A DNA stretch of 32,000 nucleotides from Thermohalobacter berrensis (GTDB lineage: Bacteria; Bacillota; Clostridia; Tissierellales; Thermohalobacteraceae). A model generated the notes under the pieces. That model saw only the letters and a list, made by a program, of their open reading frames with translations. It searched no databases and was not told where the DNA came from. This document shows positions 6,215 to 20,832 of this stretch, piece after piece. The translations under genes were made by a program, and so were the position numbers. The DNA lies in the NCBI RefSeq assembly GCF_003609645.1, contig NZ_MCIB01000002.1, positions 33,698-65,697 on the forward strand. Direction: 5' to 3'. Within the stretch, counting starts at the first letter, position 1. Each line of letters opens with the position of its first letter.

Positions 6215-6973
6215 TTGAGAAGATTTACCTTAATACTTTTTAGTTTTATCTGTATACTTATAGTTATTATAGTTGGAAACAAGATAACACTATATTTAAA
6301 AAATCAAAAAGTTGAAAGAAAGGGAATAAAGTTTGTTACTTCTCAGTATGAAAAATGGGAAGAGGAAAAACTAAAGGAAAATAAAGATTATAACTTGGGT
6401 ATATTAATTGATATTGATAGAAAATATCTTTACCTTATTGATATGAAAAAAAACAAACTAATAAAAAGATATGTAGTTGCTACAGGAAGGCCCAGTAGTC
6501 CTTCACCTATAGGAAGTTACAAGATAATTGAGAAGGCTAAATGGGGTGGAGGATTTGGTTCAAGGTGGATGAGGATTAACGTACCATGGGGTAAATATGG
6601 CATACATGGTACTAATAAACCAGGTTCTATAGGATATAATGCTTCCCATGGATGTATTAGAATGAGAAATAAAGACGTTGAAGAGTTATATAGCTTAGTA
6701 AAATATAATACTCCCGTAGTTCTAATAAAAGGATCCTATGGTCCCTTTGGCCATGGATTTAGAACTTTAAGACCAGGTGATAGAGGAGCAGATGTTAGAG
6801 AGGTACAAAGGGTCCTTAAAGAAAAAGAATATTATTATGGGGCTTTAGATGGGATATATGGTAATGGTATGAAGGCTGCTTTAATAAGATTTTTAAAGGA
6901 GAATAATATGCCTATTACTGATAGAATAGGATATACTGTATATAAAAAGCTAGGAATTATATTAATGGATTAA
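6215..6973 (+). CDS. L,D-transpeptidase (YkuD domain) with C-terminal peptidoglycan-binding domain
   Basis: Catalytic motif HGT...SHGCIRM and a PG_binding_1-like C-terminus (GDRGADVREVQRVLKE...YYYGALDGIYG). The ORF opens at GTG 6206, but SD GAGGAG fits the TTG at 6215. Confidence 0.85.
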   Translation: MRRFTLILFSFICILIVIIVGNKITLYLKNQKVERKGIKFVTSQYEKWEEEKLKENKDYNLGILIDIDRKYLYLIDMKKNKLIKRYVVATGRPSSPSPIGSYKIIEKAKWGGGFGSRWMRINVPWGKYGIHGTNKPGSIGYNASHGCIRMRNKDVEELYSLVKYNTPVVLIKGSYGPFGHGFRTLRPGDRGADVREVQRVLKEKEYYYGALDGIYGNGMKAALIRFLKENNMPITDRIGYTVYKKLGIILMD

Positions 6974-7055
6974 TATATCATGTTTATTTGTTAACAAATT
7001 TACTTTATAATTAGAATATCAATACATTAAAAACAACAGATTAAGGGGGATAAGG
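6902..7055 (+). repeat. Left 154-bp direct repeat (attL-like junction)
   Basis: By eye identical over its whole length to 21677-21830. It covers the last 72 nt of the L,D-transpeptidase CDS plus 82 nt of downstream sequence. Confidence 0.9.
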
Positions 7056-7184
7056 AATAGACAAAATAAAAAGAATACAATGTTTAAATAATTTTGCCCT
7101 AATGCACGTTAAAAATATAAACAAAACTAAAAAATAGTAAATATTAGTTAGGTAAAATTAAATAGGAAAACTGCTAATTATTAC

Positions 7185-7212
7185 TTGACAGTAACAAAAT
7201 GGCTTGTATACT
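7185..7212 (+). promoter_or_regulatory. Sigma-A-like promoter candidate for the hsd operon
   Basis: TTGACA (7185-7190), 16-nt spacer, TATACT (7207-7212). A second candidate is the extended -10 TGATATAAT at 7233-7241. Confidence 0.45.
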
Positions 7213-7298
7213 GGAATATAATTACAAAGGTATGATATAATTTTTATAGTCAACAAAACTATTAAAGCAAGTTATTTTAATATCGGAGGGTGAATTAT

Positions 7299-8816
7299 AT
7301 GTCTAAATTAACACTACAAAAACTAGAATCAACTTTATGGAAGGCAGCAGACATACTTAGAGGAGAATTAAGTGCTGCCGAATATAAAGATTATATATTT
7401 GGTTTATTATTTTTAAAGAGGATGAATGATCAATTTGAAGTTGAAAGACAAAAGAAAAAAGAAGAATTTTTATCACAGGGTATGGCTGAAGAAGAAGTAA
7501 ATATAATTCTTGAAGAATCTTCTATATATGAGAGTTTCTTTGTTCCAAAAAGGGCAAGATGGGAAAATTTAAGAAATTTAAATCTAAATATTGGGCCTGA
7601 ATTGGACAAGGCGTTTAAAGCAATAGAAGATGAACCTAAAAATTCTGAACTTATAGGTGTACTTACGACTGCAAATTACAACGATAAGGAAAGGGTGCCA
7701 GATAAAAAGTTATCTCAACTTTTATTGTTGTTTGATAGTATAAATCTTTCAAATGATAATCTTGAAAATAAAGATGTACTTGGTAATGCATATGAATATC
7801 TAATAAAAAAATTTGCTGATGAAGGTGGTAAAAAAGGTGGAGAATTCTACACTCCAGAGGAAGTAGTTAAAGTTCTTGTAAATATCCTAAAACCACAAGA
7901 AGGAGACAGAATATATGACCCAACTGTAGGAAGTGGGGGTATGCTAATACACTCAACTCATTACATAGAAAAACATGGTGGTAACCCTAAAAATGTTTCA
8001 CTGTTCGGTCAAGAAATAAATCTTTCTACGTGGGCTATTTGTAAAATGAATATGCTTTTCCATGATGCAAGGGGAGCAGATATACAAAAGGGCGATACTA
8101 TAAGATATCCTATGCATGTAGAAGGTGGAGTATTAAAAACCTTTGATATAGTTCTTGCAAATCCACCATTTTCGTTGAAAAACTGGGGTAAAGAAGAAGC
8201 ACAGGCAGATCCATATAATAGATTCCCATATGGAGTACCACCAAAAAGTTATGGTGATATGGCATTTGTATGCCACATGATAGCAAGTTTAAACGATAAA
8301 GGAAAAATGGGTACAGTAGTTCCACATGGAGTATTATTTAGAGGTGGAGCAGAAGGAAAGATAAGAAAAGGAATATTAAAGGATGATTTAATTGAAGCAG
8401 TAATAGGACTTCCTGCAAATATATTCTATGGTACAGGAATTCCAGCAGCATTACTTATAGTAAATAAAAATAAACCAGCAGAGAGAAAAGAAAAAATACT
8501 ATTTATAGATGCAAGTAAAGGCTTCATAAAGGACGGAAACAAAAATAAACTTAGAGAAGAAGATATAGAAAAGATAACTAAGACTTTTGATGAGTTCAAA
8601 GATGTGGATAAATATGCTAGAGTAGTAAGTTTAGATGAAATAAAAGAAAATGATTATAACTTAAATATAAGTAGATATGTAGATACAACTGAACCAGAAC
8701 CAGAAATAGATATACCAGAAGTTATTAAGGAAATAAAAGAATTAAAAGAAAAGTCTAAGAAAACAGAAGATAGATTAAATGAGTATTTAAAGGAATTAGG
8801 ATTTGATGAAATTTAA
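7299..8816 (+). CDS. hsdM: Type I restriction-modification system, N6-adenine DNA methyltransferase subunit
   Basis: AdoMet motif [10 protein letters not shown], catalytic NPPF ([11 protein letters not shown]), HsdM N-terminal helical domain. SD GGAGGG 8 nt before ATG 7299 (the ORF opens at GTG 7290). Confidence 0.95.
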
Positions 8817-8924
8817 AATAAGTATGTAAATAAGTTTTAAGAAACAGATGATGAATTAGAAATTTGTATTAGGTTAAATGATTGGTATTAAAAAACAAAA
8901 ATAATAAGGGGAATACAAGGTAAC

Positions 8925-9185
8925 ATGGATAATGTTCTTACAAATGAATTATTTTATAAATCTCTGTTAAAAGTTTTTGTTGAGATATTTAAAATGGCAT
9001 GGCAATTGGATGTTTTTAAGTCAGCAATTATAGGTATTCCTGTGTCTATAGTTACATATAGAATTGTTGGTTTCGTTTTTTCATGGGGTAGATATAATGG
9101 CATTTGGTTTGGAAGAGTAGGAGGAAAATTAATATATTATTGTATAAACTCGATTCTAATATGGTTAATTATGAAAGTGGTATAA
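8925..9185 (+). CDS. Hypothetical small membrane protein (86 aa) between hsdM and hsdS
   Basis: Two or three hydrophobic helices (SAIIGIPVSIVTYRIVGFVF; LIYYCINSILIWLIM). It is co-directional and ends 6 nt before the hsdS ORF opens. I recognise no family. Confidence 0.45.
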   Translation: MDNVLTNELFYKSLLKVFVEIFKMAWQLDVFKSAIIGIPVSIVTYRIVGFVFSWGRYNGIWFGRVGGKLIYYCINSILIWLIMKVV

Positions 9186-9200
9186 AGAGAGGTGAAGCAG

Positions 9201-10475
9201 TTGGGAACAATTAACAATGAACAATTAATAAATAATAATCAAAATAAATATAAAAAGACAGAAATAGGAGAGATACCGAAGGAGTGGGAGGTTAAGGAAA
9301 TAGGTGAAATAGGTTCAACTTATAATGGGTTATCTGGAAAAAACAAAGATGATTTTGGTAGAGGAAAGCCATTTATACCATATAAAAATATATTTGATAA
9401 TTCAAAAATAGATATTAATTATTTAGATTATGTTGTTATTAAAGACGATGAAAATCAGAATAAAGTTAAGTACGGTGATATATTTTTTACAACGTCATCT
9501 GAAACACCAGAGGAAGTAGGTATGAGTTCTGTTATTTTAGATGAAATAGATGAATTATATTTGAATAGTTTTTGTTTTGGATTTAGATTAAATGATTTTA
9601 GTATATTGTTACCTGAATTTGCAAGATACTTATTTAGAGGAGGCAAAATAAGAAAAATAGTCTCAAGATTGGCACAAGGCTCTACAAGATTCAATTTATC
9701 AAAAACTCAGTTTATGAAGATAAGTATCCCTATTCCCCCACTTAAAGAACAACAAAAAATAGCATCTATTCTTTCAACAGTGGATGAACAAATTGAACAA
9801 ACAGATGTATTAATCGAAAAAACTAAGGAACTTAAAAAAGGACTTATGCAAAAACTTCTGACTAAAGGTATTGGGCATACAGAATTTAAGAAGACGGAAA
9901 TAGGAGAGATACCGAAGGAGTGGGAGGTAATACCCCTATTTGATACAGGAGAATATATAAACGGAAAAGCATTTAAACCTTCTGAATGGAGAGATGAAGG
10001 TATTCCTATAATAAGAATTCAAAATTTAAATGATAAAAATGCAACATATAACTACTATAATCTAGAAGTAGATAAAAAATATCATGTAAATAAAGGTGAT
10101 TTATTATTCGCATGGTCAGGTTCTATAGGATTGCATATATGGAAAGAAGAGAAAGCATATCTAAATCAACATATTTATAAAGTTATTCCAAGCGAAAATG
10201 TAGATAAAAAATATTTATATTATCAATTATCTAGACAAATTGAAATTTTGCTTGAATTATCACATGGATCAACAATGAAACATATAACAAGAAAAAATTT
10301 AAAATTGGTAAAAATACCATTACCCTCACCTAAAGAACAACAAAAAATAGCCACTATTCTTTCAGAAGTAGATAACCAAATAGAGGAGTATGAAATAAAA
10401 AAAGAAAAACTTCAAAACCTTAAAAAAGGACTTATGCAACAATTATTAACAGGTAAAAAAAGGGTGAAAGTATAG
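9201..10475 (+). CDS. hsdS: Type I restriction-modification system, specificity subunit
   Basis: Two TRDs, each opened by TEIGEIPKEWEV and closed by conserved helices (PPLKEQQKIASILSTVDEQIEQ...KKGLMQKLLT and PSPKEQQKIATILSEVDNQIEE...KKGLMQQLLT). The ORF opens at GTG 9192; the TTG at 9201 has better SD spacing. Confidence 0.95.
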   Translation: MGTINNEQLINNNQNKYKKTEIGEIPKEWEVKEIGEIGSTYNGLSGKNKDDFGRGKPFIPYKNIFDNSKIDINYLDYVVIKDDENQNKVKYGDIFFTTSSETPEEVGMSSVILDEIDELYLNSFCFGFRLNDFSILLPEFARYLFRGGKIRKIVSRLAQGSTRFNLSKTQFMKISIPIPPLKEQQKIASILSTVDEQIEQTDVLIEKTKELKKGLMQKLLTKGIGHTEFKKTEIGEIPKEWEVIPLFDTGEYINGKAFKPSEWRDEGIPIIRIQNLNDKNATYNYYNLEVDKKYHVNKGDLLFAWSGSIGLHIWKEEKAYLNQHIYKVIPSENVDKKYLYYQLSRQIEILLELSHGSTMKHITRKNLKLVKIPLPSPKEQQKIATILSEVDNQIEEYEIKKEKLQNLKKGLMQQLLTGKKRVKV

Positions 10476-11305
10476 TGAGATATGCTTTGGCTTTTCGAGA
10501 TGCTAATTTCACAGAAACTCTAAAGTATATTGATGAAATTTCCAATAGATTTGTAAATGAAATAAAGAAGGTTAGTTACGTTTCAGGAGATGAAGAAATT
10601 CAGGAATTATTATCTGAACAAAGTTTAAATCAATTTTTAGCCATTACTTATTCATTAAATATCCCGATAAATGAGGCTAAGTTAAAGGATCCTAATTTTG
10701 AAGACCTTGGTGAATTGTTTGGATTTAATGATACATTAGAAAATAAAGCAAGACTTATGCAAATGTGGATTTCGTTGGGGTCTGCTCTTGAATCATTATT
10801 ACAAATATTTCTGGGAATCTATTTAAGGGATTATGAAAATTCAGGATGGGGAAAATGGGAGAATTTTAAACTCCAAGAAACTAAAGAGAATCTATTAAGA
10901 ACATTAAATGAGTTAAGAGAGAAAGAAATTATAAGTCAGAAACAAAAGAACACATTTAAGAAAGATATTAAGAACTATTTAAAAGATAAACAACAGACTA
11001 AACATTTAGCAGAGTTAATTTTAGGAAGTTTGATTAATTTTTATTATTCAAATAACTTGTGGCCAGATGATGATGCAGATAGGATAAAAGCAAAAATGGA
11101 TTTTATTAGAGAAAATAGAAACTGTGTACATTCATTTAAGGAGAGATATGTAGGAACTTGGGAAGAATTACTTGATTCTTTAAAGTTTTTTACCCAGATT
11201 ATGTTAGAACTTTTATCACGATTACCTGATGTAGATGAAATTCTCCAATATGAGATAGAACTAAAGTCTGAAATTGAGAGTTATTATAATGATTACTGGT
11301 ATTAA
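10475..11305 (+). CDS. Hypothetical all-helical protein (276 aa) between hsdS and hsdR; weak HEPN-like R-x6-H motif
   Basis: The GTG start shares one nt with the hsdS TAG stop (TAGTG), and AGGGTG lies about 8 nt upstream. Motif FIRENRNCVHSF sits near the C-terminus. I recognise no family. Confidence 0.55.
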   Translation: MRYALAFRDANFTETLKYIDEISNRFVNEIKKVSYVSGDEEIQELLSEQSLNQFLAITYSLNIPINEAKLKDPNFEDLGELFGFNDTLENKARLMQMWISLGSALESLLQIFLGIYLRDYENSGWGKWENFKLQETKENLLRTLNELREKEIISQKQKNTFKKDIKNYLKDKQQTKHLAELILGSLINFYYSNNLWPDDDADRIKAKMDFIRENRNCVHSFKERYVGTWEELLDSLKFFTQIMLELLSRLPDVDEILQYEIELKSEIESYYNDYWY

Positions 11306-11355
11306 AGATAGTTAAATAGTTTAAACTAGTGATATCAAAAGTAGGGGGGGGTAAC

Positions 11356-14300
11356 ATGTCTTATCTAGGGAATGAGGAAACCCTTGTTGAAATACCAGCA
11401 ATTGAATACCTACGGGATAAATTAGATTATCAATTTGTCCATGGACAGTTTTTAACCCCTGAATATGGTGAAAGAGATTCAATGACAGAGGTTATATTAA
11501 AGAAAAGGCTAGAAAAGGCACTCAAAAGACTTAATCCATGGATGAATGATACTAATATAAACAAGGCTATAAGATATCTTACTAGACCAGAAAATTTAGG
11601 GGTTAATTTGTATGACATAAATGAGAAAATATATGACGCTATTGTAAATTTATCTTACTCATTAGAACAAGACTTAGATGGTAGTGGTAAAAAGAAATAT
11701 TACACAATTAAGTTTATTGACTGGCATAATATAGATAATAATGAATTTTTAGTTACTAGACAATTTAAAGTACATGGACCAAATGAAAATATAATACCTG
11801 ATATAGTTATATTTATTAACGGGATACCTGTAGTAGTTTTAGAGTGTAAATCACCATTTCTTGAAAAGAGTAAAAACGAAAATATGGGAAAATATGAAGC
11901 CTTTAATCAACTCCAAAGATACATGAATGCAAGAGGTGGAAATATAGTAGAAGGTGCAGAAAGACTCTTTTATACAAACTTTATTACAGGTATATTAAAT
12001 AAATATCATGGTTACATAGGTACTATAAGTTCTACATATCAATTTTATCAGGAATGGAAAGACCCTTATCCTTTTAAAATAAAGGATATAGATGGAGTAG
12101 AGGATAATGGACAAAATATATTTTTACATGGCGTACTTGAAAAAGAGAATCTTGTAGATATAATGCAAAATTTTATATTATTTGAAAGTGGAGTTAAAAA
12201 GGTTTGTAGATATCAGCAATTTAGAGCAGTAAATAAGGCTTTAAAAAGACTTATTAAAGGTAAGGATTCAATAAGTCGTGGGGGAGTTATATGGCATACC
12301 CAAGGTTCGGGCAAATCGTTAACAATGGTATTTTTAGCAAGAAAAATAAGAAAAATTAAGGAACTTATGGATGCTACTATAGTTGTGGTAACTGATAGAA
12401 TAGACTTAGATAAACAAATTTACAACACTTTTGTAAGAACATTATCTAATATTACTACACCAGTTAGGGCAGATAGTGTGGCTTCATTAAAGGAATTACT
12501 ATCCCTTGCACAACCACAAATTATAATGACTACAATTCATAAGTTCCAAGGAGAAAAGGAAGATAAGGAAGTATTAAAGGATTCAAAACAAAAGAAAGGA
12601 TTGTATTTTGAAAAAGAGTTTCCGGTTTTAACTACAAAGTCAAATGTTATAGTACTTGCTGATGAAGCCCATAGAAGTCAATACAAGACAATGGCAAAAA
12701 ATATGAGGAATGCACTGCCAAATGCTGCTTTTATAGGATTTACAGGAACACCTATAGATAAAAAGGATAAATCCACAGTCAGAACATTTGGTAAATATAT
12801 AGATAAATATGGCATAAAACAAGCAGTAGAAGATGGAGCAACAGTAAAAATAGTATATGAAGGTAGAAAACCAGAACTTCAAATTAAAGGAGACACATTA
12901 GAGGAATTATTTGACGAAGCCTTCGGAGATAGAAGTGATGAAGAGAAGGAAGCAATAAAGCAAAAGTATGCTAACAAAAGGACAATAGTTGAGGCAGACG
13001 AAAGAATAGAAGATATAGCCAAGGATATTCTTACCCATTATAAAGAGCAGATTTATCCTAACGGATTTAAGGCACAGGTAGTGTGCGTATCAAGGGATGC
13101 GTGTGTAAAATACTATAACGCATTAAATAAATATATGGGAAAAATTATAGGAGAAAAATTAGAAGTAAAAATTATATTTTCAGGTAGTCCTAATGATGAG
13201 CCATATTTAAAAGAACACCACACTACAAAAGCAGAACAGGATGAAATAATAAAAAGATTTAAGCAACCAATAGATAAGGATAAACTCTGTTTTATTATTG
13301 TAAAGGATATGCTTCTTACGGGATTTGATGCACCAATTGAGCAAGTAATGTATTTAGATAGACCACTGAAAGAACATAATTTACTACAAGCAATTGCAAG
13401 GGTAAATAGAACATATGGAGATAGTAAGAAGTGTGGTTATGTAGTAGATTATTATGGTATATCTAATCATCTAGAAGAAGCATTAGCAATATTTGATAAA
13501 GAAGAACTAGGACAGCCAATGGAATCCTTAGATTCAATATATAATCAGATGCTTTCTTATAGAGAAGCAGTCATGAATATGTTTAGAGGTGTAGACAAAG
13601 ATGATTTAGACAGCCTAGTTAGAAAAATAGAGCCTGAAGATAAAAGGGCAGAATTTGAACTTGCGTACAAAAGATTTGCAAGTACAATGGAACAATTATT
13701 ACCTTCACGGGTTCCAACTAATATGATAAATGATCTGAGATGGCTTACATATATAAGAGCAGCTGCAAAGGCCAGATTTGAACCACAAAACAAATTAGAT
13801 ATAGCAGGGTGTGGAGGAAAGGTTAAAAAAATAATATCAGAACATCTAAAATCTAAAGGTGTAGAGCAATGGATTGAGCCTATTACATTGTTTGATTCAA
13901 ATTTTAATATAAAAATAAACAAATTAGAATCAGATGAAGCAGTAGCATCAAGCATGGAACATGCTATAAAACATGTAATAAATGTTAGAATGGATGAAAA
14001 CCCTGTTCATTATACTTCGTTGCTAGAAAAACTCAAAAAGATATTAGATGAAACCAAGAATAACTGGATAGAGAGAAAAAATAAGTTAAAAGAATTTATA
14101 GAAAATGACATCCAAAAAGGAGAAATAGAGGAAGCAGAGGCATTAGGACTTACAAAGGAAGAATATGCTTTCTTTCAAACAGTTAAAAAACATCTTAAAG
14201 ATGATAGTGATAATACAAATATAGTAAAAGAAGAAGGAGAAGATTATATATCAAATGAGATAATAGAATTATCGAAAAGTATTGCTAAGGATGTAAGCGA

Positions 14301-14484
14301 AATAGTAAAAGAAAATTATGTTATAGATTGGACAACAAATCCATCAAAGACCTCTGATATAGAAAGGGAAATTTATTTAACCCTTACAAAAAAATATTTT
14401 AAAAAGTTAAAGTTAGAGATAAGAAAACAGTTAGTACAGCCACTTCTTAATTTGGCCAAAAAACATTATGCAGTATTAGATTAA
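11356..14484 (+). CDS. hsdR: Type I restriction enzyme, restriction/translocase subunit
   Basis: N-terminal PD-(D/E)xK (IPDIVIFINGIPVVVLECK). SF2 motifs HTQGSGKSLTMV, VLADEAHRSQ, FTGTP and QAIARVNR. Long helical C-terminus. The G-rich SD precedes ATG 11356 (the ORF opens at 11329). Confidence 0.95.
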   Translation: MSYLGNEETLVEIPAIEYLRDKLDYQFVHGQFLTPEYGERDSMTEVILKKRLEKALKRLNPWMNDTNINKAIRYLTRPENLGVNLYDINEKIYDAIVNLSYSLEQDLDGSGKKKYYTIKFIDWHNIDNNEFLVTRQFKVHGPNENIIPDIVIFINGIPVVVLECKSPFLEKSKNENMGKYEAFNQLQRYMNARGGNIVEGAERLFYTNFITGILNKYHGYIGTISSTYQFYQEWKDPYPFKIKDIDGVEDNGQNIFLHGVLEKENLVDIMQNFILFESGVKKVCRYQQFRAVNKALKRLIKGKDSISRGGVIWHTQGSGKSLTMVFLARKIRKIKELMDATIVVVTDRIDLDKQIYNTFVRTLSNITTPVRADSVASLKELLSLAQPQIIMTTIHKFQGEKEDKEVLKDSKQKKGLYFEKEFPVLTTKSNVIVLADEAHRSQYKTMAKNMRNALPNAAFIGFTGTPIDKKDKSTVRTFGKYIDKYGIKQAVEDGATVKIVYEGRKPELQIKGDTLEELFDEAFGDRSDEEKEAIKQKYANKRTIVEADERIEDIAKDILTHYKEQIYPNGFKAQVVCVSRDACVKYYNALNKYMGKIIGEKLEVKIIFSGSPNDEPYLKEHHTTKAEQDEIIKRFKQPIDKDKLCFIIVKDMLLTGFDAPIEQVMYLDRPLKEHNLLQAIARVNRTYGDSKKCGYVVDYYGISNHLEEALAIFDKEELGQPMESLDSIYNQMLSYREAVMNMFRGVDKDDLDSLVRKIEPEDKRAEFELAYKRFASTMEQLLPSRVPTNMINDLRWLTYIRAAAKARFEPQNKLDIAGCGGKVKKIISEHLKSKGVEQWIEPITLFDSNFNIKINKLESDEAVASSMEHAIKHVINVRMDENPVHYTSLLEKLKKILDETKNNWIERKNKLKEFIENDIQKGEIEEAEALGLTKEEYAFFQTVKKHLKDDSDNTNIVKEEGEDYISNEIIELSKSIAKDVSEIVKENYVIDWTTNPSKTSDIEREIYLTLTKKYFKKLKLEIRKQLVQPLLNLAKKHYAVLD

Positions 14485-14496
14485 GGATGATACGAG

Positions 14497-15210
14497 ATGA
14501 AACTATCATTTAACTTTGGAACAAGAAATATAGAATTTGATGTAGAATATAGAAACAGAAAGACTATAGAAATAAGCATGGAGCCACCGGATACAATAAA
14601 CGTAGTGGCTCCTATTAATACTCCAGAGGATGTAATAATTAAAAAAGTAAAAAGCAGAGGCTCTTGGATAGTTCAAAAACTATTTGAATTTAAGAATATG
14701 GAATATAGAAAAATCAAAAGAGAATTTGTTAATGGAGAATCATTTATGTACTTGGGACGAAATTATTCTCTTCAGATAATAGATGATTTAAATATAAAAA
14801 GACCTGAAGTTAAACTATATCAAGGCAAATTTTATATAAAATCAAATACTAGACAAGAAGATATACTACAGGCTGCAATGGAAAATTGGTATAGGAAAAA
14901 GGCGTTAGAAAAGATAACTGAAAGGGTAAAGTATTATCAGCACTATTTTAAAGAAAAACCTTTAGATATAAAGGTAAAAGAGCAGCAGAAAAGATGGGCA
15001 AGTTGTACATCAAAGAATGAATTATTATTTAATTGGAGATGTGTAATGGCTCCATCTCATGTACTCGACTATATAGTAGTTCATGAAATGTGTCATATGG
15101 TTTATAAAAACCATTCAAAGGAATTTTGGGATTTAGTAGCATCAATAATGCCTGATTATCAAACTAGAAAAGAATGGCTTAGAGATTATGGGGTAAGGAT
15201 GGATTTGTAA
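14497..15210 (+). CDS. DUF45/YgjP-like (COG1451, annotated M48-like) zinc metallopeptidase
   Basis: HExxH in VVHEMCHMVYKNHSKEFW, the family-typical context. It starts 12 nt after hsdR, with SD AAGGATGA. Confidence 0.8.
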   Translation: MKLSFNFGTRNIEFDVEYRNRKTIEISMEPPDTINVVAPINTPEDVIIKKVKSRGSWIVQKLFEFKNMEYRKIKREFVNGESFMYLGRNYSLQIIDDLNIKRPEVKLYQGKFYIKSNTRQEDILQAAMENWYRKKALEKITERVKYYQHYFKEKPLDIKVKEQQKRWASCTSKNELLFNWRCVMAPSHVLDYIVVHEMCHMVYKNHSKEFWDLVASIMPDYQTRKEWLRDYGVRMDL

Positions 15211-15228
15211 AAACTAAAGGGGGATAAT

Positions 15229-16695
15229 ATGGAAGATAACTCAAGAGTTCCAAGAGTGTTTATATCTTATAGTTGGTCATCGCAAGACCATGAAAACTGG
15301 GTGTTGGAATTGGCTGAAAGACTAGTAAACGATGGGATAGATGTTATACTTGATAAATGGAATTTAAAAGAAGGACAAGATAAATATGTATTTATGGAGA
15401 AATCTATAAAAAGAGAAGATGTAGATAAAATCTTAGTAATTTGTGACAAAGTATATCAAGAAAAAGCAGATGAAAGAAAAGGTGGAGTAGGGACGGAATC
15501 TCAAATAATATCAAAAGAAGTGTATGAAGATACTGGTCAAGAAAAATTTATACCTATTATAAAAGAATTTGATGAAAATGGACAACCCTTTCTGCCTACT
15601 TTTTTCAGTACAAGAATTTACTTAGATTTTTCAGATCACTATAAATATGAGGAGAGTTATGAAAAATTAGTAAGAAGTTTATATGGGAAGCCCATGTATA
15701 AAAAACCCAAACTGGGTTCTCCTCCACCATATATTTTAGAAGATGAAGTTGATAACTCTAAAACTAAATACTATGTAAAACAGATTGAAAATGCAATATT
15801 GAATAATAAGAAATTCACAAAGGGGTTAATTGTTGATTTTTTAGATAAAATCATTGAATCTCTCGATGAATATAGAATCTATATTGATAATACATCAAAT
15901 ATTAATGAATTTGATGAACTAGTAATAGATAATATAAATAAATTAATACCGTTAAGAAACGATTTTATCAAAGTAGTAGATATAATTTTTAAATATAAAG
16001 AACATATTGATCTCAATAAGTTTCATAGGTTTTGGGAAGAAATAATAAAATATCAATATAAAACACCAGATATGAGTTCGTATTATCAATTCCAATTTGA
16101 TAATTTTAAGTTTTTTATATATGAATTATTTCTGTATTTTATAACTATATTATTAAAATTAGAAAAGTATGAAGAAGCATCTTTTTTCATTAATGCTACA
16201 TATTTTTATAAAATTAACAATTATGGAGAATTAGTTAACGGCAATATATCAGAATTCAATAATTATGTAGAATCACTTGAACAAATAAGGCAAAATAGAT
16301 TAAAGTTAAATAGAATATCTATAACAGCAGATTTAATAAAAGAAAGGGCTAATATTCACAATATAAAATTCAGAGATATTGTTGAAACAGACTATTTATT
16401 ATTTTTTATAACGATAAATAATAGTAAAGATAGTATAAGGCAAGATATATGGGTTCCTAGATGTAGTGTTTATAATAGTTATCATAGAAAACCTTTAATA
16501 TTTGAGAAGATGATTTCTGCTAGACACTTTGAAAAAGTTAAAATACTATTTAAAGTTAATACACCTGAAGAATTTAAAAATATGATATTAAAAACTACGG
16601 ATTTAGGTATAGATAAAGACTATTATAAATCATTTTATCGTATTATTTCTATAAATAAAGTAGTTGATATAGAAAAATTAGCAACTTTAGATTAA
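15229..16695 (+). CDS. TIR/SEFIR-like domain protein with an uncharacterised ~320-aa C-terminal domain
   Basis: N-terminus PRVFISYSWSSQDHENWVLELAERLVNDGIDVILDKWNL..G.....M...I...DKILVICDKVY...GGVGTESQII matches the SEFIR/TIR beta-alpha pattern. The remainder is helical, with one hydrophobic stretch (FFIYELFLYFITILL). SD AAGGGGGA. Confidence 0.65.
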   Translation: MEDNSRVPRVFISYSWSSQDHENWVLELAERLVNDGIDVILDKWNLKEGQDKYVFMEKSIKREDVDKILVICDKVYQEKADERKGGVGTESQIISKEVYEDTGQEKFIPIIKEFDENGQPFLPTFFSTRIYLDFSDHYKYEESYEKLVRSLYGKPMYKKPKLGSPPPYILEDEVDNSKTKYYVKQIENAILNNKKFTKGLIVDFLDKIIESLDEYRIYIDNTSNINEFDELVIDNINKLIPLRNDFIKVVDIIFKYKEHIDLNKFHRFWEEIIKYQYKTPDMSSYYQFQFDNFKFFIYELFLYFITILLKLEKYEEASFFINATYFYKINNYGELVNGNISEFNNYVESLEQIRQNRLKLNRISITADLIKERANIHNIKFRDIVETDYLLFFITINNSKDSIRQDIWVPRCSVYNSYHRKPLIFEKMISARHFEKVKILFKVNTPEEFKNMILKTTDLGIDKDYYKSFYRIISINKVVDIEKLATLD

Positions 16696-16725
16696 TCATA
16701 AATATAATAAAACAATATAAACAAA

Positions 16726-17448
16726 TTAGAAAGGGAATATCTTTAGCACGGATATTCCCTTCGGTATTTTTCTATTTTTCAAATATTCTTGTATAGCATT
16801 TCTGCAATCTGGGTTTATTGGAACTTTTCTATACTTGCCATGCTTACCGTAAATTAATAAATAAGAACCTCTTTCACGAAGTACTATATTATCAATTTTC
16901 AAAGAAATTACTTCACTAACTCTAAGATCATGTCTTAATAGTTTAATTATCAAAATATGATGCTTATAACCACTCCTGTAAATTTCCCTTTTTAGTTTCC
17001 GAAATGTCTTTTCATCTATCCATTTAGGTTGTGAAGGATTTTCAATTTTAATTTTTTAAAGATTCTTTGATACATCTTTTTTTATATAATTATAAGAATA
17101 AAGAAAAGAAAAGTAGTTTTTTAGGCTCATAATCTTTAAATTTACTGTATTTGCTTTTGCATTTTTAATATTGATTAGATAGGACCTAAAATCGCGGAGG
17201 TCTATTGTTGTAATTATTTGGGGTTGAAAGGAATCTGTATTAGATTTATTAAACCACTTTATAAAATTAACAATATTGTCTATATAAGTATTTATAGTTA
17301 ATTCTGTTTTATCTAGATTTTCTAGATATCCTTTAAACTCATTTAAATAATAACAATCCTTATTGATATATAAATCCCTTTTTTCATCTTTAACATACCT
17401 CCAAAATATTTTTTTAGAAGTATATAAATTTTTGATATTCAGTTTCAA
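16726..17448 (-). pseudogene. Tyrosine recombinase (XerC/D-like phage integrase) pseudogene: in-frame TAA plus loss of the C-terminal catalytic half
   Basis: ORFs 17056..17448 (SAM-like N-terminal domain) and 16726..16953 (LLRHDLRVSEV...GKHGKYRKVPIN) share one frame. Only the TAA at 17056-17058 separates them. The H-x-x-R and catalytic Tyr regions are missing. Confidence 0.8.
16731..16771 (+). terminator. Rho-independent terminator ending the hsd/TIR operon
   Basis: Hairpin AAGGGAATATC / GATATTCCCTT followed by CGGTATTTTT. It lies inside the last codons of the antisense integrase fragment. Confidence 0.65.
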
Positions 17449-17522: not shown

Positions 17523-17564
17523 TTATTTGTTAATGCATAAATTTTACAATTAGAATATTACTGC
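17523..17564. repeat. Degenerate att-like remnant next to the integrase
   Basis: Ungapped 32/42 match to 6984-7025 of the 154-bp repeat, including two exact 11-mers (TTATTTGTTAA and AATTAGAATAT) on the same diagonal. Confidence 0.55.
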
Positions 17565-17713
17565 TTTTGAAAAAGAGTAATTTTTGGTTGAAACATAAAA
17601 TTGAAAAAAGAATTCTAGTTATGTTTAAAAGTTATATGGAAAATCAAGGAAAAGTATTTTATAATAAAAGTGTAAAAGTTTGTATTATATATTTCAATAA
17701 CAGAGGGTATCGA

Positions 17714-19776
17714 ATGTTCGTTTCGAAATTATACATAAAAAACTTTAGAAGTATTAAGAAATTAAAAATTTCATTTAGATCAGGTAAAAACGTATTGGTT
17801 GTAAAGAATAATGCAGGAAAAAGTAATATAGTTAAAGCATTAAATTTGGTTTTAGGTGAAAAAAATCCTGTATATTCAAGGCAAATAAATGAAAAAGATT
17901 TTTTTTCATGTTCAAAAGATGGACAAGTAGTAAGTGAGAAGGCATTTTTTGTTGCAGCAAAATTACAAGGAAAAGATATAAATAAAACAATATTTCAAAA
18001 TGTTAATGGATTATGGTTGGCAACTTTTAAAAATTCAAATCCGTTAGAATCTTTTTTTGAAGGTAATAACTCAAAGAGTTACGAAATTCTCATGGGAAAT
18101 TTTCAGAATATTAAGAACAGAGAGTATTATAAGGATAAGAATCAGTTGTTTAATATGTTTAATAATGCAGATGAACTATACATTTATTTTTGTGCAGTTA
18201 AAGATGATGAGCAAAAGCGTAATATGGATTATTATCAAAAAAATATTCAATAACTTACAGTATATTATTAAAACATGATAACAACTATTATAGATGTTCA
18301 AAATTTCCAAATGACTTAAGGAATTCTTTAATAACAAGTGCAATTCTACCGGCTTTTAGAGATGCAAATAATCAATTGAGAATTAGTGATTGGAGGTTGT
18401 ATGGGAAACTAATTAAACATATATGGGAAAATTCGGATTTTAACAAGAAAGCAGTTATAGAGAAAAAACTTGATGAAATTAAACAAATAACTGATGACAT
18501 TTTTGATGATGCTATTATGGATATTCAACAAAAGATTAGAGAAGCAATATACTTTAGTAATATTTCATTCCAATTATTAGAAAATACTAAAGATGATATA
18601 TATAAAGGGATAGAAGTTTTTATTGACGATGGAATTTTAGGATTATTAAAGGATAAAGGAACTGGTATACAAAGTGCTTTTATAATATCATTATTTTCAT
18701 ATTATTGTAGTAAGTTTCATAAAAATTCGTCACTACTTGTAGTAGAAGAACCAGAAATTTATCTACATCCTCAAGCAAGAAGAGTATTATCGTATAAGTT
18801 TGATGAGTTTGTTAACCTTAATCATATTAACGGCAACCAAGTTATAATAACGACTCATTCAAGTGAATTCATTAGAAATACTAACTTAGAAAATATTATT
18901 CTTGTAAAAAAAGTTAACGGAAGAACTACAACTAAGAGTATTACATTGCATTCTGAAAAAATAAGGATTTAATAAAATTCAAAATATAATATCTACAAAA
19001 AATGCAGAAATATTTTTTGCTGAAAAAGTTATTTTAGTAGAAGGTGGAGAAGAATATATTGTACCATTAATTGTAGATGAATATTTTGGAAAGTCTGGTT
19101 ATTTAGATAATAATAATATTACAGTAGCAAAAGTTGGAGGTAAATATTTTTTTAAACCTTATTTGCAATTAATATCTGCCTTAGGAATTGAATATTATGT
19201 TATTGCTGATTTTGATATGCTTTATGAAGGATTAGAACATTTAAGAGAATTTATTAATTGTGTTACTTATTTAGACATTAATGAAATAAAAAGTGAATTA
19301 TTTAAAATTGTTACACCTGATAATCAATGGAAAGAAAGCAAAAAAATAAAGAAACAATTAAAAAAGTATAATGCAAAAGAATTTTGCAATCTAGTAGAAA
19401 AGATATGTGATACTAAAGAGTATGATGAACAATTATGTGAGATATGGTCAGATATTAAACCTAGATTTAAGAAGAAAATAGATTATGAAACTTTAAAGCA
19501 ACGTAAAAACTTACAAAAAAAATATATAATTTTATTGACAAATTAAAAGAAGATAATATTTATATTATGAAAAAAGGAGAATTAGAGGATTATATAACGT
19601 CTTATGGCTGGCAAGTAATAAAAGAATTTGGATTTTCAGATCAAAAAGAGTTGAGAATAATGAAGTTAGCAGAAATGATAAGTAGAGGGGATATTAAATT
19701 AGAAGATGTTATGGACGTACAAGAGTATTTAGAAGTGATTAAGAAAATAAAAGTTTTATTAAATAATAATATTTAA
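17714..19776 (+). pseudogene. OLD-family ATP-dependent endonuclease (ABC-type ATPase plus Toprim), disrupted by three frameshifts
   Basis: N-terminus YIKNFRSI...NNAGKSNIVKALNLVLG, signature GTGIQS, Walker B LLVVEEPEIYLHP, H-loop ITTHS, Toprim ILVEGGEE and VIADFD. The reading frame changes at the A7 run 18237-18243, within GGATTT 18965-18970, and at the A8 run 19515-19522. Confidence 0.8.
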
Positions 19777-19878: not shown

Positions 19879-20832
19879 ATGATTTATAACTTTAGGATTG
19901 ACAGAAGTTGTAGAGAAGATATTATTAACAGAATTAAAACTGAAAAAACATTATCCCAAGGCTGGGGAGGTGGAGATTATAATCTAAGTTTGGAAGATGA
20001 AGATTTTGTCAATAGGTGTTATGAACACTATAAGTTGAATAGTACTAGAATACCTACTAACTTAACTAGAATTAGAGAATTTAAAGATAATGATATTATT
20101 GTAGTACCTCATTTGCCAGAAGATAGAAAAGTAACTTTCTTAATAGTTGATGAAGATTATCCTAACTGCTATGAATATGTTAAAAATGATAAAACCCATC
20201 AAAATCACAGAATTAAAATAAAAGAAGTATATGGATTAGAGGGAAATGTTGAGATATATAATGAGAAATTAGTAAATTGGTATGGTAAATTACAGTGGAT
20301 GAGACTACCTATACTGCCAATAGATAAGTTTAGTAAAGATATTAATGAGATTATAGATAATTTAAGAAAAAATCCAAGTTTAAAATTTAAAATGACAGAG
20401 TTAGATGAATATCTATTAAACAAAAAAGATGAGTTAGTTAATAAATTAAAAGAGGACTTACGAAAGATAAATGCAAGTAATAGTGCTTTATCTTTTGAAA
20501 AAATTTGTGAAAAAATAATAAAAGATAATGGGTATGAGATTAAAAGAAGAAACGTATATGACAAAACAGGTGGAGACATAGACCTAGAGTGTATAAGAAA
20601 TAGAAATGATATTTCACCTTTTGAGAGTGGAGAAGTCAAATTGTTTGTTCAGATTAAGAAACATAAAGGTGAAACTGATGAATATGCGGTAAAACAAGTT
20701 TCTAAATTTATGGATAAAAATCCAGAGGCTGATGGATGTGTTATGACACTAGCAGATAAATTTTCTGATAATGCAATTAAAGAGGCAAATGAAAAAAAAT
20801 ATTTCATTATTAAATGGAAAAGAAGTATGTGA
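19879..20832 (+). CDS. Mrr-like PD-(D/E)xK restriction endonuclease with an unknown N-terminal domain; C-terminus altered by an A8-tract frameshift
   Basis: C-terminal half FEKICEKIIKDNGYEI...GGDIDLEC...LFVQIKKHKG resembles the Mrr catalytic core. One fewer A in 20792-20799 would read ...EKNISLLNGKEVCELLLRSMIQIDG and stop at 20869. Confidence 0.65.
   Translation: MIYNFRIDRSCREDIINRIKTEKTLSQGWGGGDYNLSLEDEDFVNRCYEHYKLNSTRIPTNLTRIREFKDNDIIVVPHLPEDRKVTFLIVDEDYPNCYEYVKNDKTHQNHRIKIKEVYGLEGNVEIYNEKLVNWYGKLQWMRLPILPIDKFSKDINEIIDNLRKNPSLKFKMTELDEYLLNKKDELVNKLKEDLRKINASNSALSFEKICEKIIKDNGYEIKRRNVYDKTGGDIDLECIRNRNDISPFESGEVKLFVQIKKHKGETDEYAVKQVSKFMDKNPEADGCVMTLADKFSDNAIKEANEKKYFIIKWKRSM

What the first reader, a model, noticed from the sequence alone, without database searches (positions are those of the whole stretch)
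7185..16771. Type I R-M operon expanded to seven genes, with four non-canonical passengers
The gene order is hsdM, orf86, hsdS, orf276, hsdR, DUF45 peptidase, TIR/SEFIR protein. All are co-directional, with gaps of 108, 6-15, -1 (TAGTG overlap), 23-50, 12 and 18 nt. I see one promoter-like site upstream. The only convincing hairpin plus T-tract follows the last gene. A Type I system needs only R, M and S, so more than half of this unit is unexplained. The packing suggests a layered unit: restriction plus one or two back-up, abortive-infection-type effectors guarded by the R-M complex. The EcoprrI/PrrC arrangement is the precedent. I do not recognise this particular combination as a described system.
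Basis: partly seen in the sequence, partly recalled or inferred. Interest (0 to 1): 0.8.

Follow-up and report, generated by a model that had tools for sequence, protein, structure and literature searches.

The report
Restriction operon carrying extra defence genes
This is a bacterial Type I restriction-modification operon that has picked up extra, probably antiviral, genes in slots where such cargo is already known to collect; the layout is ordinary, but two of the extra genes belong to uncharacterised families worth testing.

Summary
The seven co-directional genes, their spacings, the upstream promoter-like site and the single strong terminator are all present as described. The unit is not one novel seven-gene system.

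- **Core.** hsdM-orf86-hsdS-orf276-hsdR-ygjP is a six-gene cassette that recurs in Mobilitalea, Alkalithermobacter and a metagenome contig.
- **DUF45/YgjP peptidase.** It is not a passenger. It is the usual partner placed immediately after hsdR: 8 of 10 sampled plasmid homologues, and about 10% of complete E. coli genomes.
- **SEFIR gene.** It is the known single-gene NAD+-depleting system bSEFIR. Here it is a recent insertion that replaced the cassette's terminator and the 3' end of a neighbouring integrase gene. None of 6 sampled homologues lies next to hsd genes.
- **orf276.** It sits in the hsdS-hsdR slot, a documented site for embedded defence genes (PrrC, DarTG2, TgvAB). It belongs to an unannotated all-alpha family under strong purifying selection. 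Eight of 14 sampled contexts lie inside or beside Type I operons. Its HEPN-like RNxxH motif is not canonical.
- **orf86.** It is a conserved small protein with two hydrophobic segments and no known function.

The closest described analogue is the seven-ORF RRDM island of enteropathogenic E. coli. Verdict: a new variant of a known kind, of moderate interest.

The parts
6984..7033 (.). Left copy of a 50-nt imperfect direct repeat flanking the island (candidate attL)
   Evidence: It matches 17523-17572 at 37 of 50 positions. In the shuffle test the right-hand region ended at 17566, so the best 50-mer scored was 35 of 50; none of 200 shuffles of the two intergenic regions exceeded 33. It lies just after the YkuD stop codon at 6973.
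7185..7212 (+). Sigma-70-like promoter candidate, TTGACA-16-TATACT
   Evidence: 11/12 match. No + strand ORF of 20 aa or more lies between 6974 and 7298, so there is no RptR-like regulator gene. Function is inferred only.
7299..8816 (+). hsdM, Type I methyltransferase subunit
   Evidence: PF02384 1.5e-113, HsdM_N 5.9e-28, TIGR00497 above cut-off. NPPF motif at residue 288. dN/dS 0.048 against Mobilitalea.
8925..9185 (+). orf86, a conserved small protein with two hydrophobic segments; function unknown
   Evidence: No family in Pfam, PADLOC or NCBIfam. An 86-aa homologue sits at the same hsdM-hsdS position in L001, L006 and L024, 52-56% identical with no indels. Hydrophobic segments at about residues 33-53 and 65-86. 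dN/dS 0.20.
9192..10475 (+). hsdS, specificity subunit with two target-recognition domains
   Evidence: PF01420 5e-54 in two stretches. Internal direct repeats D1 and D2 mark the conserved regions. The recognition domains have diverged from relatives (42% aa identity, dN/dS 0.50).
10475..11305 (+). orf276, embedded cargo gene of an unannotated all-alpha family; candidate nuclease-type abortive-infection effector
   Evidence: The 1-nt overlap with the hsdS stop codon is kept in L001 and L006. 243 representatives at E<=1e-3. Invariant W98, G102, E106, L186, R215, N216, H219 in 46 sequences. AF2 pLDDT 91.3. No significant PDB or BFVD neighbour. dN/dS 0.050.
11329..14484 (+). hsdR, restriction/translocase subunit
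   Evidence: TIGR00348 2e-160, plus HSDR_N, SWI2_SNF2, T1R_D3-like and T1RH-like_C. PD...ECK at residue 172, GSGKS at 326, DEAH at 445. Nearest solved structure is EcoR124I HsdR, 1.5e-34.
14497..15210 (+). YgjP-like (DUF45; annotated 'M48' or 'SprT family') zinc metallopeptidase, the regular hsdR partner
   Evidence: PF01863 1.2e-60. HExxHx5H (H196, E197, H200, H206) is invariant in 13 homologues of 21-70% identity. Eight of 10 sampled plasmid homologues lie immediately after hsdR. 562 of 5426 E. coli genomes carry one; all 19 full-length rows of a 20-row spread sample overlapped the hsdR end.
15211..16766 (+). Inserted segment (RBS, SEFIR gene and its own terminator), absent from the two closest cassettes
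   Evidence: blastn homology to L001 and L006 stops at 15210 and resumes at 16767/16777. GC is 0.23 here against 0.29-0.32 in the cassette.
15229..16695 (+). bSEFIR, a single-gene NAD+-depleting anti-phage protein
   Evidence: PADLOC bSEFIR PDLC03957 5.3e-109. Pfam SEFIR 1.4e-21, stronger than TIR_2 3e-18. PDB 5Y8E SEFIR domain 9e-44. PHROG 11745 2e-141.
16731..16761 (+). Intrinsic-terminator-like hairpin with T-tract
   Evidence: 12-bp stem, 4 GC pairs, tail CGGTATTTTT. It belongs to the inserted segment. In relatives a different hairpin follows ygjP directly.
16768..17448 (-). Tyrosine integrase pseudogene
   Evidence: tblastn against the 297-aa Mobilitalea integrase gives 63% identity over residues 3-205 only. 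There is an in-frame stop at 17056-17058, and the C-terminal catalytic part is missing.
17523..17572 (.). Right copy of the flanking 50-nt repeat (candidate attR)

Best explanation
The locus is a composite, horizontally acquired defence island built on a Type I restriction-modification operon of the lineage whose hsdR is followed by a YgjP-like zinc peptidase.

The inherited unit is six genes: hsdM, orf86, hsdS, orf276, hsdR and ygjP.
- HsdM, HsdS and HsdR methylate host DNA and cut unmethylated DNA. This follows from intact motifs and established family knowledge.
- YgjP is a conserved accessory of HsdR. I infer, with low confidence, that it acts as a Wss1/SprT-type protease on HsdR or on stalled restriction complexes, a form of restriction control.
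- orf276 occupies the hsdS-hsdR cargo slot. It is most likely an autonomous single-protein, infection-activated effector, possibly a HEPN-like nuclease that uses the conserved E106, R215, N216, H219 and R224. This is inferred.
- orf86 is a small, probably membrane-inserted protein of unknown role that travels with this cassette.

The seventh gene, bSEFIR, is a known stand-alone NAD+-depleting abortive-infection protein. It was inserted later, directly after ygjP. The insertion replaced the original terminator and the 3' end of the island's integrase gene. As a result bSEFIR is now probably read from the operon promoter, and the island can probably no longer excise.

The modules share transcription and give layered protection, but they most likely act independently rather than as one machine.
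For: Shown:
- Gene identities and intact motifs.
- The same six-gene cassette in Mobilitalea sibirica, Alkalithermobacter paradoxus and metagenome contig L024. Variants without orf86 occur in L002 and L018.
- The SEFIR segment 15211-16766 is absent from both close relatives. There, ygjP is followed by its own hairpin and a complete convergent integrase gene.
- SEFIR homologues are on 147 plasmids and 5 phages, and none of 6 sampled contexts has hsd genes.
- YgjP homologues lie directly after hsdR in 8 of 10 sampled plasmids from five phyla. In 5 of those 8, different cargo genes sit upstream of hsdR.
- 562 of 5426 E. coli genomes carry the hsdR-M48 pair. One example has cargo in both the S-R slot and the post-M48 slot.
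- orf276 relatives are embedded at hsdS-hsdR in 6 contexts and beside another Type I operon in 2. They also occur alone in a Gabija/Tn7 island, an Mrr/PIN/DruA island, a prophage end and next to a vWA-PP2C-kinase cluster.
- dN/dS of orf276 is 0.05.

From the literature:
- bSEFIR defends as a single gene and depletes NAD+ (10.1101/2022.05.11.491447; 10.1101/2024.02.11.579819).
- The hsdS-hsdR site is a hotspot for embedded defence systems, and the EPEC RRDM island has the same layout (PMC12255303; PMC11411939; 10.1101/2024.01.29.577857).
Against: - No transcript data. Co-transcription rests on short gaps and the absence of internal terminators, and promoter-like sites occur at chance density.
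- The biochemical roles of orf276, orf86 and YgjP are not established by any search. orf276 has no significant structural neighbour and fails the canonical HEPN Rx4-6H spacing.
- Independence of the modules is argued from distribution, not from experiment. orf86 was seen only in cassettes that also carry orf276 (4 of 4), which could point to a functional link.
Confidence: 0.65

Rival explanations
1. Integrated, guarded system. orf276, perhaps with orf86, is a latent suicide effector held inactive by the HsdMSR complex. It is released when a phage anti-restriction protein disables the complex, as EcoprrI masks PrrC. The YgjP peptidase could be part of the trigger.
For: - orf276 sits exactly where prrC sits, between hsdS and hsdR. 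Its start overlaps the hsdS stop, and this overlap is conserved in relatives.
- 6 of 14 sampled family contexts are embedded at this slot, always with ygjP after hsdR.
- orf86 was found only in such cassettes.
- orf276 is constrained as strongly as hsdM and hsdR.
Against: - Family members occur without any hsd genes nearby: L003, L020, L021, L033, L034. The protein can therefore exist without the proposed guard.
- orf276 has no P-loop or ABC ATPase domain and is all-alpha, unlike PrrC.
- Other embedded cargo tested so far (TgvAB, DarTG2) acts on its own (PMC11411939; PMC12255303).
- No evidence of interaction is available.
Confidence: 0.15
2. orf86 and orf276 are accessory or regulatory components of this Type I enzyme itself, not separate defence effectors. 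Possible roles are control of restriction after acquisition, restriction alleviation, localisation at the membrane, or assembly.
For: - Their position inside the operon is conserved in several genomes.
- YgjP shows that this HsdR lineage does carry a conserved non-canonical partner.
- No toxin or nuclease family match was found for either protein.
Against: - Most cassettes of the same HsdR-YgjP lineage lack both genes and carry unrelated cargo, or nothing, in the same slot.
- orf276 relatives are found in defence islands and prophage ends without hsd genes.
- L002 and L018 have orf276 without orf86.
Confidence: 0.12
3. The passengers are functionless hitch-hikers or decaying remnants that sit in a recombination-prone operon.
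For: - The neighbourhood does contain decayed genes: the integrase pseudogene and a split AAA_15/AAA_21 ATPase.
- The 108-nt hsdM-orf86 gap is longer than in relatives.
Against: - All four passengers are full-length with conserved motifs.
- orf276 has dN/dS 0.05 and orf86 0.20.
- The YgjP HExxHx5H motif is invariant.
- SEFIR matches the bSEFIR model end to end.
Confidence: 0.05

Closest known systems
RRDM defence island of enteropathogenic E. coli E2348/69 (RptR-HsdM-HsdS-DarT-DarG-HsdR-M48 peptidase; PMC12255303)
   Same: - Seven co-directional ORFs behind one promoter.
- A Type I R-M operon with cargo inserted between hsdS and hsdR.
- An M48/YgjP-type zinc peptidase gene immediately after hsdR.
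- Acquired horizontally.
   Different: - The cargo here is orf276, an unknown family, not DarTG2.
- There is an extra small gene (orf86) between hsdM and hsdS.
- There is no RptR-like regulator gene upstream.
- A bSEFIR gene is appended after the peptidase.
- I did not compare the EPEC peptidase sequence directly. Equivalence rests on the interchangeable PGAP names 'M48 family', 'DUF45' and 'SprT family' in the listed matches, three of them on near-identical Klebsiella plasmid loci, and on E. coli hsdR-M48 pairs.
EcoprrI / PrrC anticodon nuclease
   Same: A non-R-M gene between hsdS and hsdR of a Type I operon. It is the model for a latent suicide effector coupled to restriction.
   Different: orf276 has no ABC-ATPase or P-loop domain and no match to any nuclease family, and it is all-alpha. 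Relatives occur without hsd genes, whereas PrrC is reported as almost exclusive to Type I systems (10.1101/2024.01.29.577857).
Embedded defence genes in Type I, BREX, DISARM and Hma systems ('guilt by embedding', PADLOC PDC/HEC candidates; 10.1101/2024.01.29.577857), and TgvAB in the V. cholerae VPI-2 Type I operon (PMC11411939)
   Same: The same phenomenon and the same slot. The published survey notes that more than half of embedded genes have no assigned function.
   Different: orf276 and orf86 match none of the PADLOC v2.0.0 models, PDC entries included. They are not among the listed candidates in that release.
bSEFIR single-gene defence system (Bacillus sp. NIO-1130; 10.1101/2022.05.11.491447)
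   Same: Full-length match to the PADLOC bSEFIR model, an N-terminal SEFIR domain homologous to PDB 5Y8E, and the single-gene mobile distribution.
   Different: Here it is fused into an R-M transcription unit by an insertion. Activity was not tested, and the residue equivalent to D40 was not mapped.
HEPN ribonucleases (for example the Csm6 HEPN domain, DUF3644/HEC-08)
   Same: - An all-alpha protein with a conserved Arg-Asn...His motif and a conserved Glu.
- The top two non-generic Foldseek hits are Csm6 proteins, at E 0.05 and TM 0.27-0.30.
- Two of 100 family members give weak Pfam hits to HEPN_MAE_28990 and DUF3644.
   Different: - The motif is RNxxH (Rx3H), not Rx4-6H.
- No significant sequence, profile or structure match.
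Wss1/SprT-type minimal zincin proteases (for YgjP)
   Same: An HExxHx5H motif, a weak Pfam WLM hit of 7.5e-5, and the current PGAP name 'SprT family zinc-dependent metalloprotease'.
   Different: It is a distinct Pfam family (PF01863). No solved homologue is detectable by sequence, and no substrate is known. The link to HsdR is positional only.

Membership tests
Type I restriction-modification system | HsdM with an N6-adenine methyltransferase domain and NPPF motif | tested here: met
   PF02384 1.5e-113; TIGR00497 291.7 bits against a cut-off of 242.75; NPPF at residue 288
Type I restriction-modification system | HsdS with two target-recognition domains separated by conserved repeats | tested here: met
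   PF01420 in two stretches; internal repeats D1 and D2
Type I restriction-modification system | HsdR with a PD-(D/E)xK nuclease and a DEAD/H translocase | tested here: met
   TIGR00348 535 bits against a cut-off of 284.55; D...ECK at 172, GSGKS at 326, DEAH at 445
Type I restriction-modification system | Sequence-specific methylation and restriction activity | not testable with these tools
   Needs methylome sequencing and restriction assays
hsdR-linked YgjP-like (PF01863, 'M48/SprT family') peptidase | Pfam YgjP-like domain above the gathering score, with an intact zinc-binding motif | tested here: met
   205.5 bits against a cut-off of 26; HExxHx5H invariant in 13 homologues
hsdR-linked YgjP-like (PF01863, 'M48/SprT family') peptidase | Gene lies immediately downstream of hsdR on the same strand | tested here: met
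   12-nt gap here. The same arrangement is seen in L001, L002, L006, L018 and L024, in 8 of 10 sampled plasmids, and in the E. coli rows sampled
bSEFIR single-gene defence | N-terminal SEFIR domain that scores better than TIR | tested here: met
   SEFIR 1.4e-21 against TIR_2 3e-18, both over residues 9-148; PDB 5Y8E 9e-44
bSEFIR single-gene defence | Full-length similarity to the family model | tested here: met
   PADLOC PDLC03957 5.3e-109 over residues 3-486; PHROG 11745 2e-141
bSEFIR single-gene defence | Occurs as a lone gene without a fixed partner | tested here: met
   Six sampled homologue contexts share no conserved neighbour and have no hsd genes
bSEFIR single-gene defence | NAD+ depletion and phage protection | not testable with these tools
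   Known for the type protein only (10.1101/2024.02.11.579819)
PrrC-type R-M-masked anticodon nuclease (for orf276) | Gene embedded between hsdS and hsdR | tested here: met
   Position 10475-11305, overlapping the hsdS stop
PrrC-type R-M-masked anticodon nuclease (for orf276) | N-terminal ABC-type NTPase domain with a Walker A motif | tested here: not met
   No ATPase family hit, no GxxxxGK[ST] in the translated sequence, and the model is all-helical with no strands
PrrC-type R-M-masked anticodon nuclease (for orf276) | Physical masking by the Type I complex | not testable with these tools
   Needs pull-down and genetic tests
HEPN superfamily (for orf276) | Conserved Rx4-6H catalytic motif | tested here: not met
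   The invariant residues are R215, N216 and H219, which is Rx3H. R212, which would give Rx6H, is not conserved across the family
HEPN superfamily (for orf276) | Sequence or profile similarity to a HEPN family | tested here: inconclusive
   One of 100 members hits PF18737 at 1.4e-3 and one hits DUF3644 at 7.7e-3. hhalign against two single HEPN-containing proteins gave nothing
HEPN superfamily (for orf276) | HEPN-like helical fold | tested here: inconclusive
   With the pLDDT 91 model the best Foldseek hits are Csm6 chains (5yjc, 6tug), but at E 0.05-0.2 and TM 0.26-0.30
RRDM-type island (RptR-RMS-cargo-M48) | Order hsdM-hsdS-cargo-hsdR-M48 peptidase on one strand | tested here: met
RRDM-type island (RptR-RMS-cargo-M48) | RptR-like small repressor as the first gene | tested here: not met
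   No + strand ORF of 20 aa or more in 6974-7298
RRDM-type island (RptR-RMS-cargo-M48) | DarTG2 as the cargo | tested here: not met
   orf276 has no DarT or DarG match in Pfam or PADLOC
Phase-variable Type I system (hsdS inverton with a recombinase) | Extra hsdS copies with inverted repeats, and an active recombinase | tested here: not met
   There is one hsdS only. The repeats within hsdS are direct. The neighbouring integrase is a truncated pseudogene

The most novel reading that the evidence does not exclude
The conserved six-gene cassette is a single integrated system. In this reading orf276 is the founding member of a new nuclease-type effector family, with a HEPN-like Rx3H active site on a fold that has no solved neighbour. 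The Type I complex keeps it latent, as EcoprrI keeps PrrC latent. orf86 acts as its membrane partner, and the YgjP protease releases or resets the complex when a phage blocks restriction. That would also give the hsdR-linked YgjP/M48 peptidases a function. These peptidases are present in about 10% of E. coli genomes and, as far as I could find, have none assigned.
Probability: 0.15. Interest if true: 0.7.

Novelty: new variant of a known kind. Interest (0 to 1): 0.4.

Why it matters
The architecture itself is already known, so it adds little. It does nominate two concrete candidates for phage-defence testing:
- orf276, a family of at least 243 sequence clusters with a confidently predicted fold that has no solved neighbour, under strong constraint, and repeatedly found inside or beside Type I operons.
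- orf86, a small protein with two hydrophobic segments, probably membrane-inserted.

Neither is in current defence-finder models.

The locus also gives a clean natural example of how a stand-alone immune gene (bSEFIR) is captured into a restriction operon. One replacement event removed a terminator and disabled the island's integrase. That may be one way layered, co-regulated defence islands are built and fixed in place.

Finally, the data underline that the peptidase paired with HsdR is widespread and, as far as I could find, functionally unstudied.

Tried and rejected
Searches that gave nothing useful:
- The search for related loci with the broad orf276 alignments A2, A3 and A4 failed because no stretch was conserved enough. 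With A1 it returned only two genomes.
- The first AF2 model, from 4 sequences, was mediocre (pLDDT 70.8), and its Foldseek hits were generic helical bundles and GPCRs.
- The second model (pLDDT 91.3) still gave no significant PDB or BFVD neighbour.
- A profile search of orf276 against PDB sequences gave nothing below E 0.1.
- tblastn of orf276 against the plasmid and phage collections gave no match.
- A Pfam scan of 100 family members found no shared family.
- hhalign of the family against an Abi-family protein and a DUF4145 domain found nothing.
- A metagenome scan for orf86 found no relatives.
- YgjP has no PDB homologue by sequence.
- Literature searches for DUF45, COG1451 or YgjP together with restriction found no functional study.
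- The Rfam scan of the window found no RNA family, and there are no tRNA genes.

Readings rejected:
- A phase-variable hsdS shufflon: there is a single hsdS and the recombinase is dead.
- orf276 as a PrrC homologue: it has no ATPase domain.
- SEFIR as an ancestral part of the operon: it is absent from the closest cassettes.

Full report
**Observation.**
The best promoter-like match of the region, TTGACA-16-TATACT, is at 7185-7212. The only strong hairpin with a T-tract is at 16731-16761, after the last gene. One caveat applies. Promoter-like matches are no more frequent than in shuffled sequence (82 against 77), and an equally good one lies inside hsdR at 12137. The sequence therefore allows a single transcription unit but does not prove it. 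The window matches Thermohalobacter berrensis (orf276 is 100% identical to an NCBI protein of that species) and is about 28% G+C.

**What each gene is.**
- hsdM, hsdS and hsdR are a complete Type I system with intact motifs: NPPF in HsdM, and D...ECK, GSGKS and DEAH in HsdR. The nearest solved HsdR is EcoR124I.
- The sixth gene is a YgjP-like (PF01863, formerly DUF45) zinc peptidase, 1.2e-60. Its HExxHx5H motif is invariant across 13 homologues of 21-70% identity.
- The seventh gene matches the PADLOC bSEFIR model end to end (5.3e-109). Its N-terminal domain matches the solved Bacillus SEFIR domain 5Y8E (9e-44).
- orf86 and orf276 match no Pfam, NCBIfam, PADLOC or useful PHROG family.

**The unit is six genes plus one late arrival.**
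- The same order, hsdM-orf86-hsdS-orf276-hsdR-ygjP, is found in Mobilitalea sibirica (L001), Alkalithermobacter paradoxus (L006) and a metagenome contig (L024). L002 and L018 have the cassette without orf86, and L002 has one more gene before hsdR.
- blastn of the window against L001 and L006 is continuous from 7231 to 15210 apart from the diverged hsdM-orf86 junction and hsdS recognition regions, stops at the ygjP stop codon, and resumes at 16767/16777.
- In both relatives ygjP is followed by a strong hairpin (AAGAACTCTAC...GTAGAGTTCTT) and then by a complete convergent tyrosine integrase gene.
- In the window that hairpin and the last 92 codons of the integrase are replaced by 1.56 kb. The replacement carries a ribosome-binding site, the SEFIR gene and a different hairpin.
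- What remains of the integrase has an in-frame stop and ends at residue 205 of 297.
- The inserted segment is also lower in G+C, 0.23 against 0.29-0.32.
- A 50-nt imperfect direct repeat (37 of 50) brackets the whole block at 6984-7033 and 17523-17572. In the shuffle test the best 50-mer between the two intergenic regions scored 35 of 50, and no shuffle exceeded 33. It may be the remnant of attachment sites.
- The wider island runs from about 7.0 to 21 kb, between a YkuD transpeptidase gene and metH. It also holds a split AAA_15/AAA_21 ATPase and an Mrr-type endonuclease gene.

**The DUF45/YgjP peptidase is the regular partner of hsdR.**
- tblastn found homologues on 545 plasmids. The matches listed carry the names 'SprT family zinc-dependent metalloprotease', 'M48 family metallopeptidase' or 'DUF45 domain-containing protein', three of them on near-identical Klebsiella plasmid loci.
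- Of ten sampled contexts from Pseudomonadota, Rhodothermota, Cyanobacteriota and Bacillota, eight have the gene abutting or overlapping the 3' end of hsdR. One of these is a remnant where only an hsdR fragment and the peptidase survive.
- In five of the eight, different genes sit immediately upstream of hsdR: NucS-like plus Abi, TIGR04141, an ATP-binding protein, YecA plus a cold-shock-domain protein, and two DUF262 proteins.
- In E. coli, 562 of 5426 complete genomes carry such a gene. The 19 full-length rows of a 20-row spread sample overlap the hsdR end, and the one remaining row is a partial, IS1-disrupted copy.
- One E. coli example is the minimal hsdM-hsdS-hsdR-M48. Another has cargo in both the S-R slot and after M48.
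- I found no paper assigning a function to this peptidase. That it acts on HsdR or on stalled complexes is my inference from its position and its Wss1/SprT-type motif.

**orf276.**
- A profile search found 243 representative clusters at E<=1e-3. Named sources are Bacillota such as Clostridium, Bacillus, Priestia, Paenibacillus and Peptococcaceae.
- Invariant residues across 46 sequences are W98, G102, E106, L186, R215, N216 and H219. R224 is nearly invariant.
- With that alignment AlphaFold gives a confident all-helical model, pLDDT 91.3 and pTM 0.85. It has no significant neighbour in PDB or BFVD. The best non-generic hits are Csm6 HEPN ribonucleases at E 0.05 and TM below 0.3.
- Two of 100 members give weak hits to HEPN families. 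DUF3644 is treated as HEPN in 10.1101/2024.01.29.577857.
- The motif is RNxxH, one residue shorter than the defining Rx4-6H. HEPN membership is therefore not established.
- Of 14 sampled contexts:
  - six are embedded between hsdS and hsdR with ygjP after hsdR;
  - two lie beside a different Type I operon inside a recombinase-flanked element;
  - the rest are a Gabija/Tn7 cargo region, an Mrr/PIN/DruA island (L017), which also holds an hsdR gene about 7 kb upstream, a prophage end, a vWA-PP2C-kinase cluster, an HNH-adjacent islet and a plasmid-like region.
- dN/dS against Mobilitalea is 0.050, equal to hsdM (0.048) and hsdR (0.041). dS is saturated, so the ratios are approximate.
- This is the profile of a mobile, self-sufficient defence-type gene with a preference for Type I operons.

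**orf86.**
The 86-aa protein is conserved without indels in four cassettes. It has a strongly conserved core (FKSAIIGIPVSI...WGRNNGIWFG...GGK..YY.IN) and two hydrophobic segments. dN/dS is 0.20. I found it only in cassettes that also carry orf276, and a metagenome scan found no others. Its role is unexplained.

**SEFIR.**
bSEFIR from Bacillus sp. NIO-1130 protects as a single gene (10.1101/2022.05.11.491447). It depletes NAD+ through its N-terminal domain (10.1101/2024.02.11.579819). Homologues of the window protein are on 147 plasmids and in 5 phage records. Six sampled contexts are prophage or plasmid accessory regions with no hsd genes. Together with the insertion evidence, this makes its presence here a recent capture, not a designed layer.

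**Comparison with what is known.**
- The closest described system is the EPEC RRDM island: seven ORFs, one promoter, a Type I operon with DarTG2 between hsdS and hsdR, and an M48 peptidase after hsdR. Its authors call the S-R site a probable recombination hotspot for defence systems and did not study the peptidase (PMC12255303).
- TgvAB in V. cholerae and RloF in C. jejuni occupy the same slot (PMC11411939).
- Payne and colleagues catalogued 17,432 genes embedded in BREX, DISARM and Type I systems. They note that PrrC is almost exclusive to Type I (10.1101/2024.01.29.577857).
- The present locus differs in its cargo families, in the extra hsdM-hsdS gene, in lacking an RptR-type regulator, and in the appended SEFIR.

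**Mechanism and verdict.**
- Most likely (0.65): a composite island whose modules share a promoter but act independently.
  - Restriction of unmethylated DNA by HsdMSR.
  - A peptidase that services or controls HsdR (inferred, low confidence).
  - An infection-activated effector, orf276 (inferred, nuclease-like).
  - NAD+ depletion by bSEFIR as a last resort.
- The guarded, PrrC-like reading is possible for orf276 and orf86 (0.15) but has no direct support.
- The finding is real and tidy but ordinary in architecture: a new variant of a known kind, with interest about 0.4. That interest rests on the uncharacterised orf276 and orf86 families and on the clear record of how SEFIR was captured.

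Noticed in passing
window 6984-7033 and 17523-17572: A 50-nt imperfect direct repeat (37 of 50 identical) brackets the hsd cassette, SEFIR and the integrase remnant. In the shuffle test the best 50-mer between the two intergenic regions scored 35 of 50 and none of 200 shuffles exceeded 33. These may be attL and attR of a roughly 10.5-kb integrated island.
   Followed up: partly
window 16768-17448 (- strand): A tyrosine integrase pseudogene. It has an in-frame stop at 17056-17058 and has lost the C-terminal 92 codons to the SEFIR insertion. The island is probably fixed in place.
   Followed up: yes
window 17567-18253 and 18376-18972: Two adjacent ORFs carry the N- and C-terminal halves of an AAA_15/AAA_21 (OLD/Gabija-like or AbiEii-like) ATPase. 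This is probably a disrupted defence gene.
   Followed up: no
window 19163-19546 and 19879-20832: An unannotated 127-aa ORF is followed by an Mrr_cat/DUF6414 restriction-endonuclease-like gene. This extends the defence island to about 21 kb, just before metH.
   Followed up: no
window 9192-10475 (hsdS): hsdS is only 42% identical to the Mobilitalea copy (dN/dS 0.50), while its neighbours are 79-87% identical. DNA homology survives only in the conserved spacer and C-terminal regions, as expected if recognition domains were swapped.
   Followed up: partly
window 8817-8924: The hsdM-orf86 gap is 108 nt here but only 20-30 nt in L001 and L024. DNA homology to relatives breaks between 8815 and 9009. 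No hairpin or strong promoter-like site was seen in it.
   Followed up: partly
window 10475-10487: The NCBI protein for orf276 is 272 aa, starting 4 codons later. The GTG start that overlaps the hsdS stop gives the MR(Y/I) N-terminus conserved in all close homologues, so the public start is probably mis-called.
   Followed up: partly
window 12137-12164: An 11/12 sigma-70-like match (TTGAAA-16-TATAAT) lies inside hsdR on the + strand. It is as good as the one upstream of hsdM and could be an internal promoter or chance.
   Followed up: no
L017 7253-10051: In Peptococcaceae CEB3 the orf276 homologue sits in a tight three-gene array (247 aa, 259 aa, then a 425-aa DUF8370/DUF8371 protein) next to Mrr, PIN and DruA genes. 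This may be a multi-gene variant of the family's system.
   Followed up: no
L031 10808-13246 (E. coli FDAARGOS_497): A hypothetical gene and a DUF262 (GmrSD-like) gene follow the M48 peptidase on the same strand. This shows that the position after the peptidase is also used for cargo, as with SEFIR here.
   Followed up: partly
window 1-32000: No Rfam family reaches its gathering score anywhere in the window. That includes the regions upstream of crcB (25940) and metH (21831), where from general knowledge fluoride and cobalamin riboswitches are often found.
   Followed up: no
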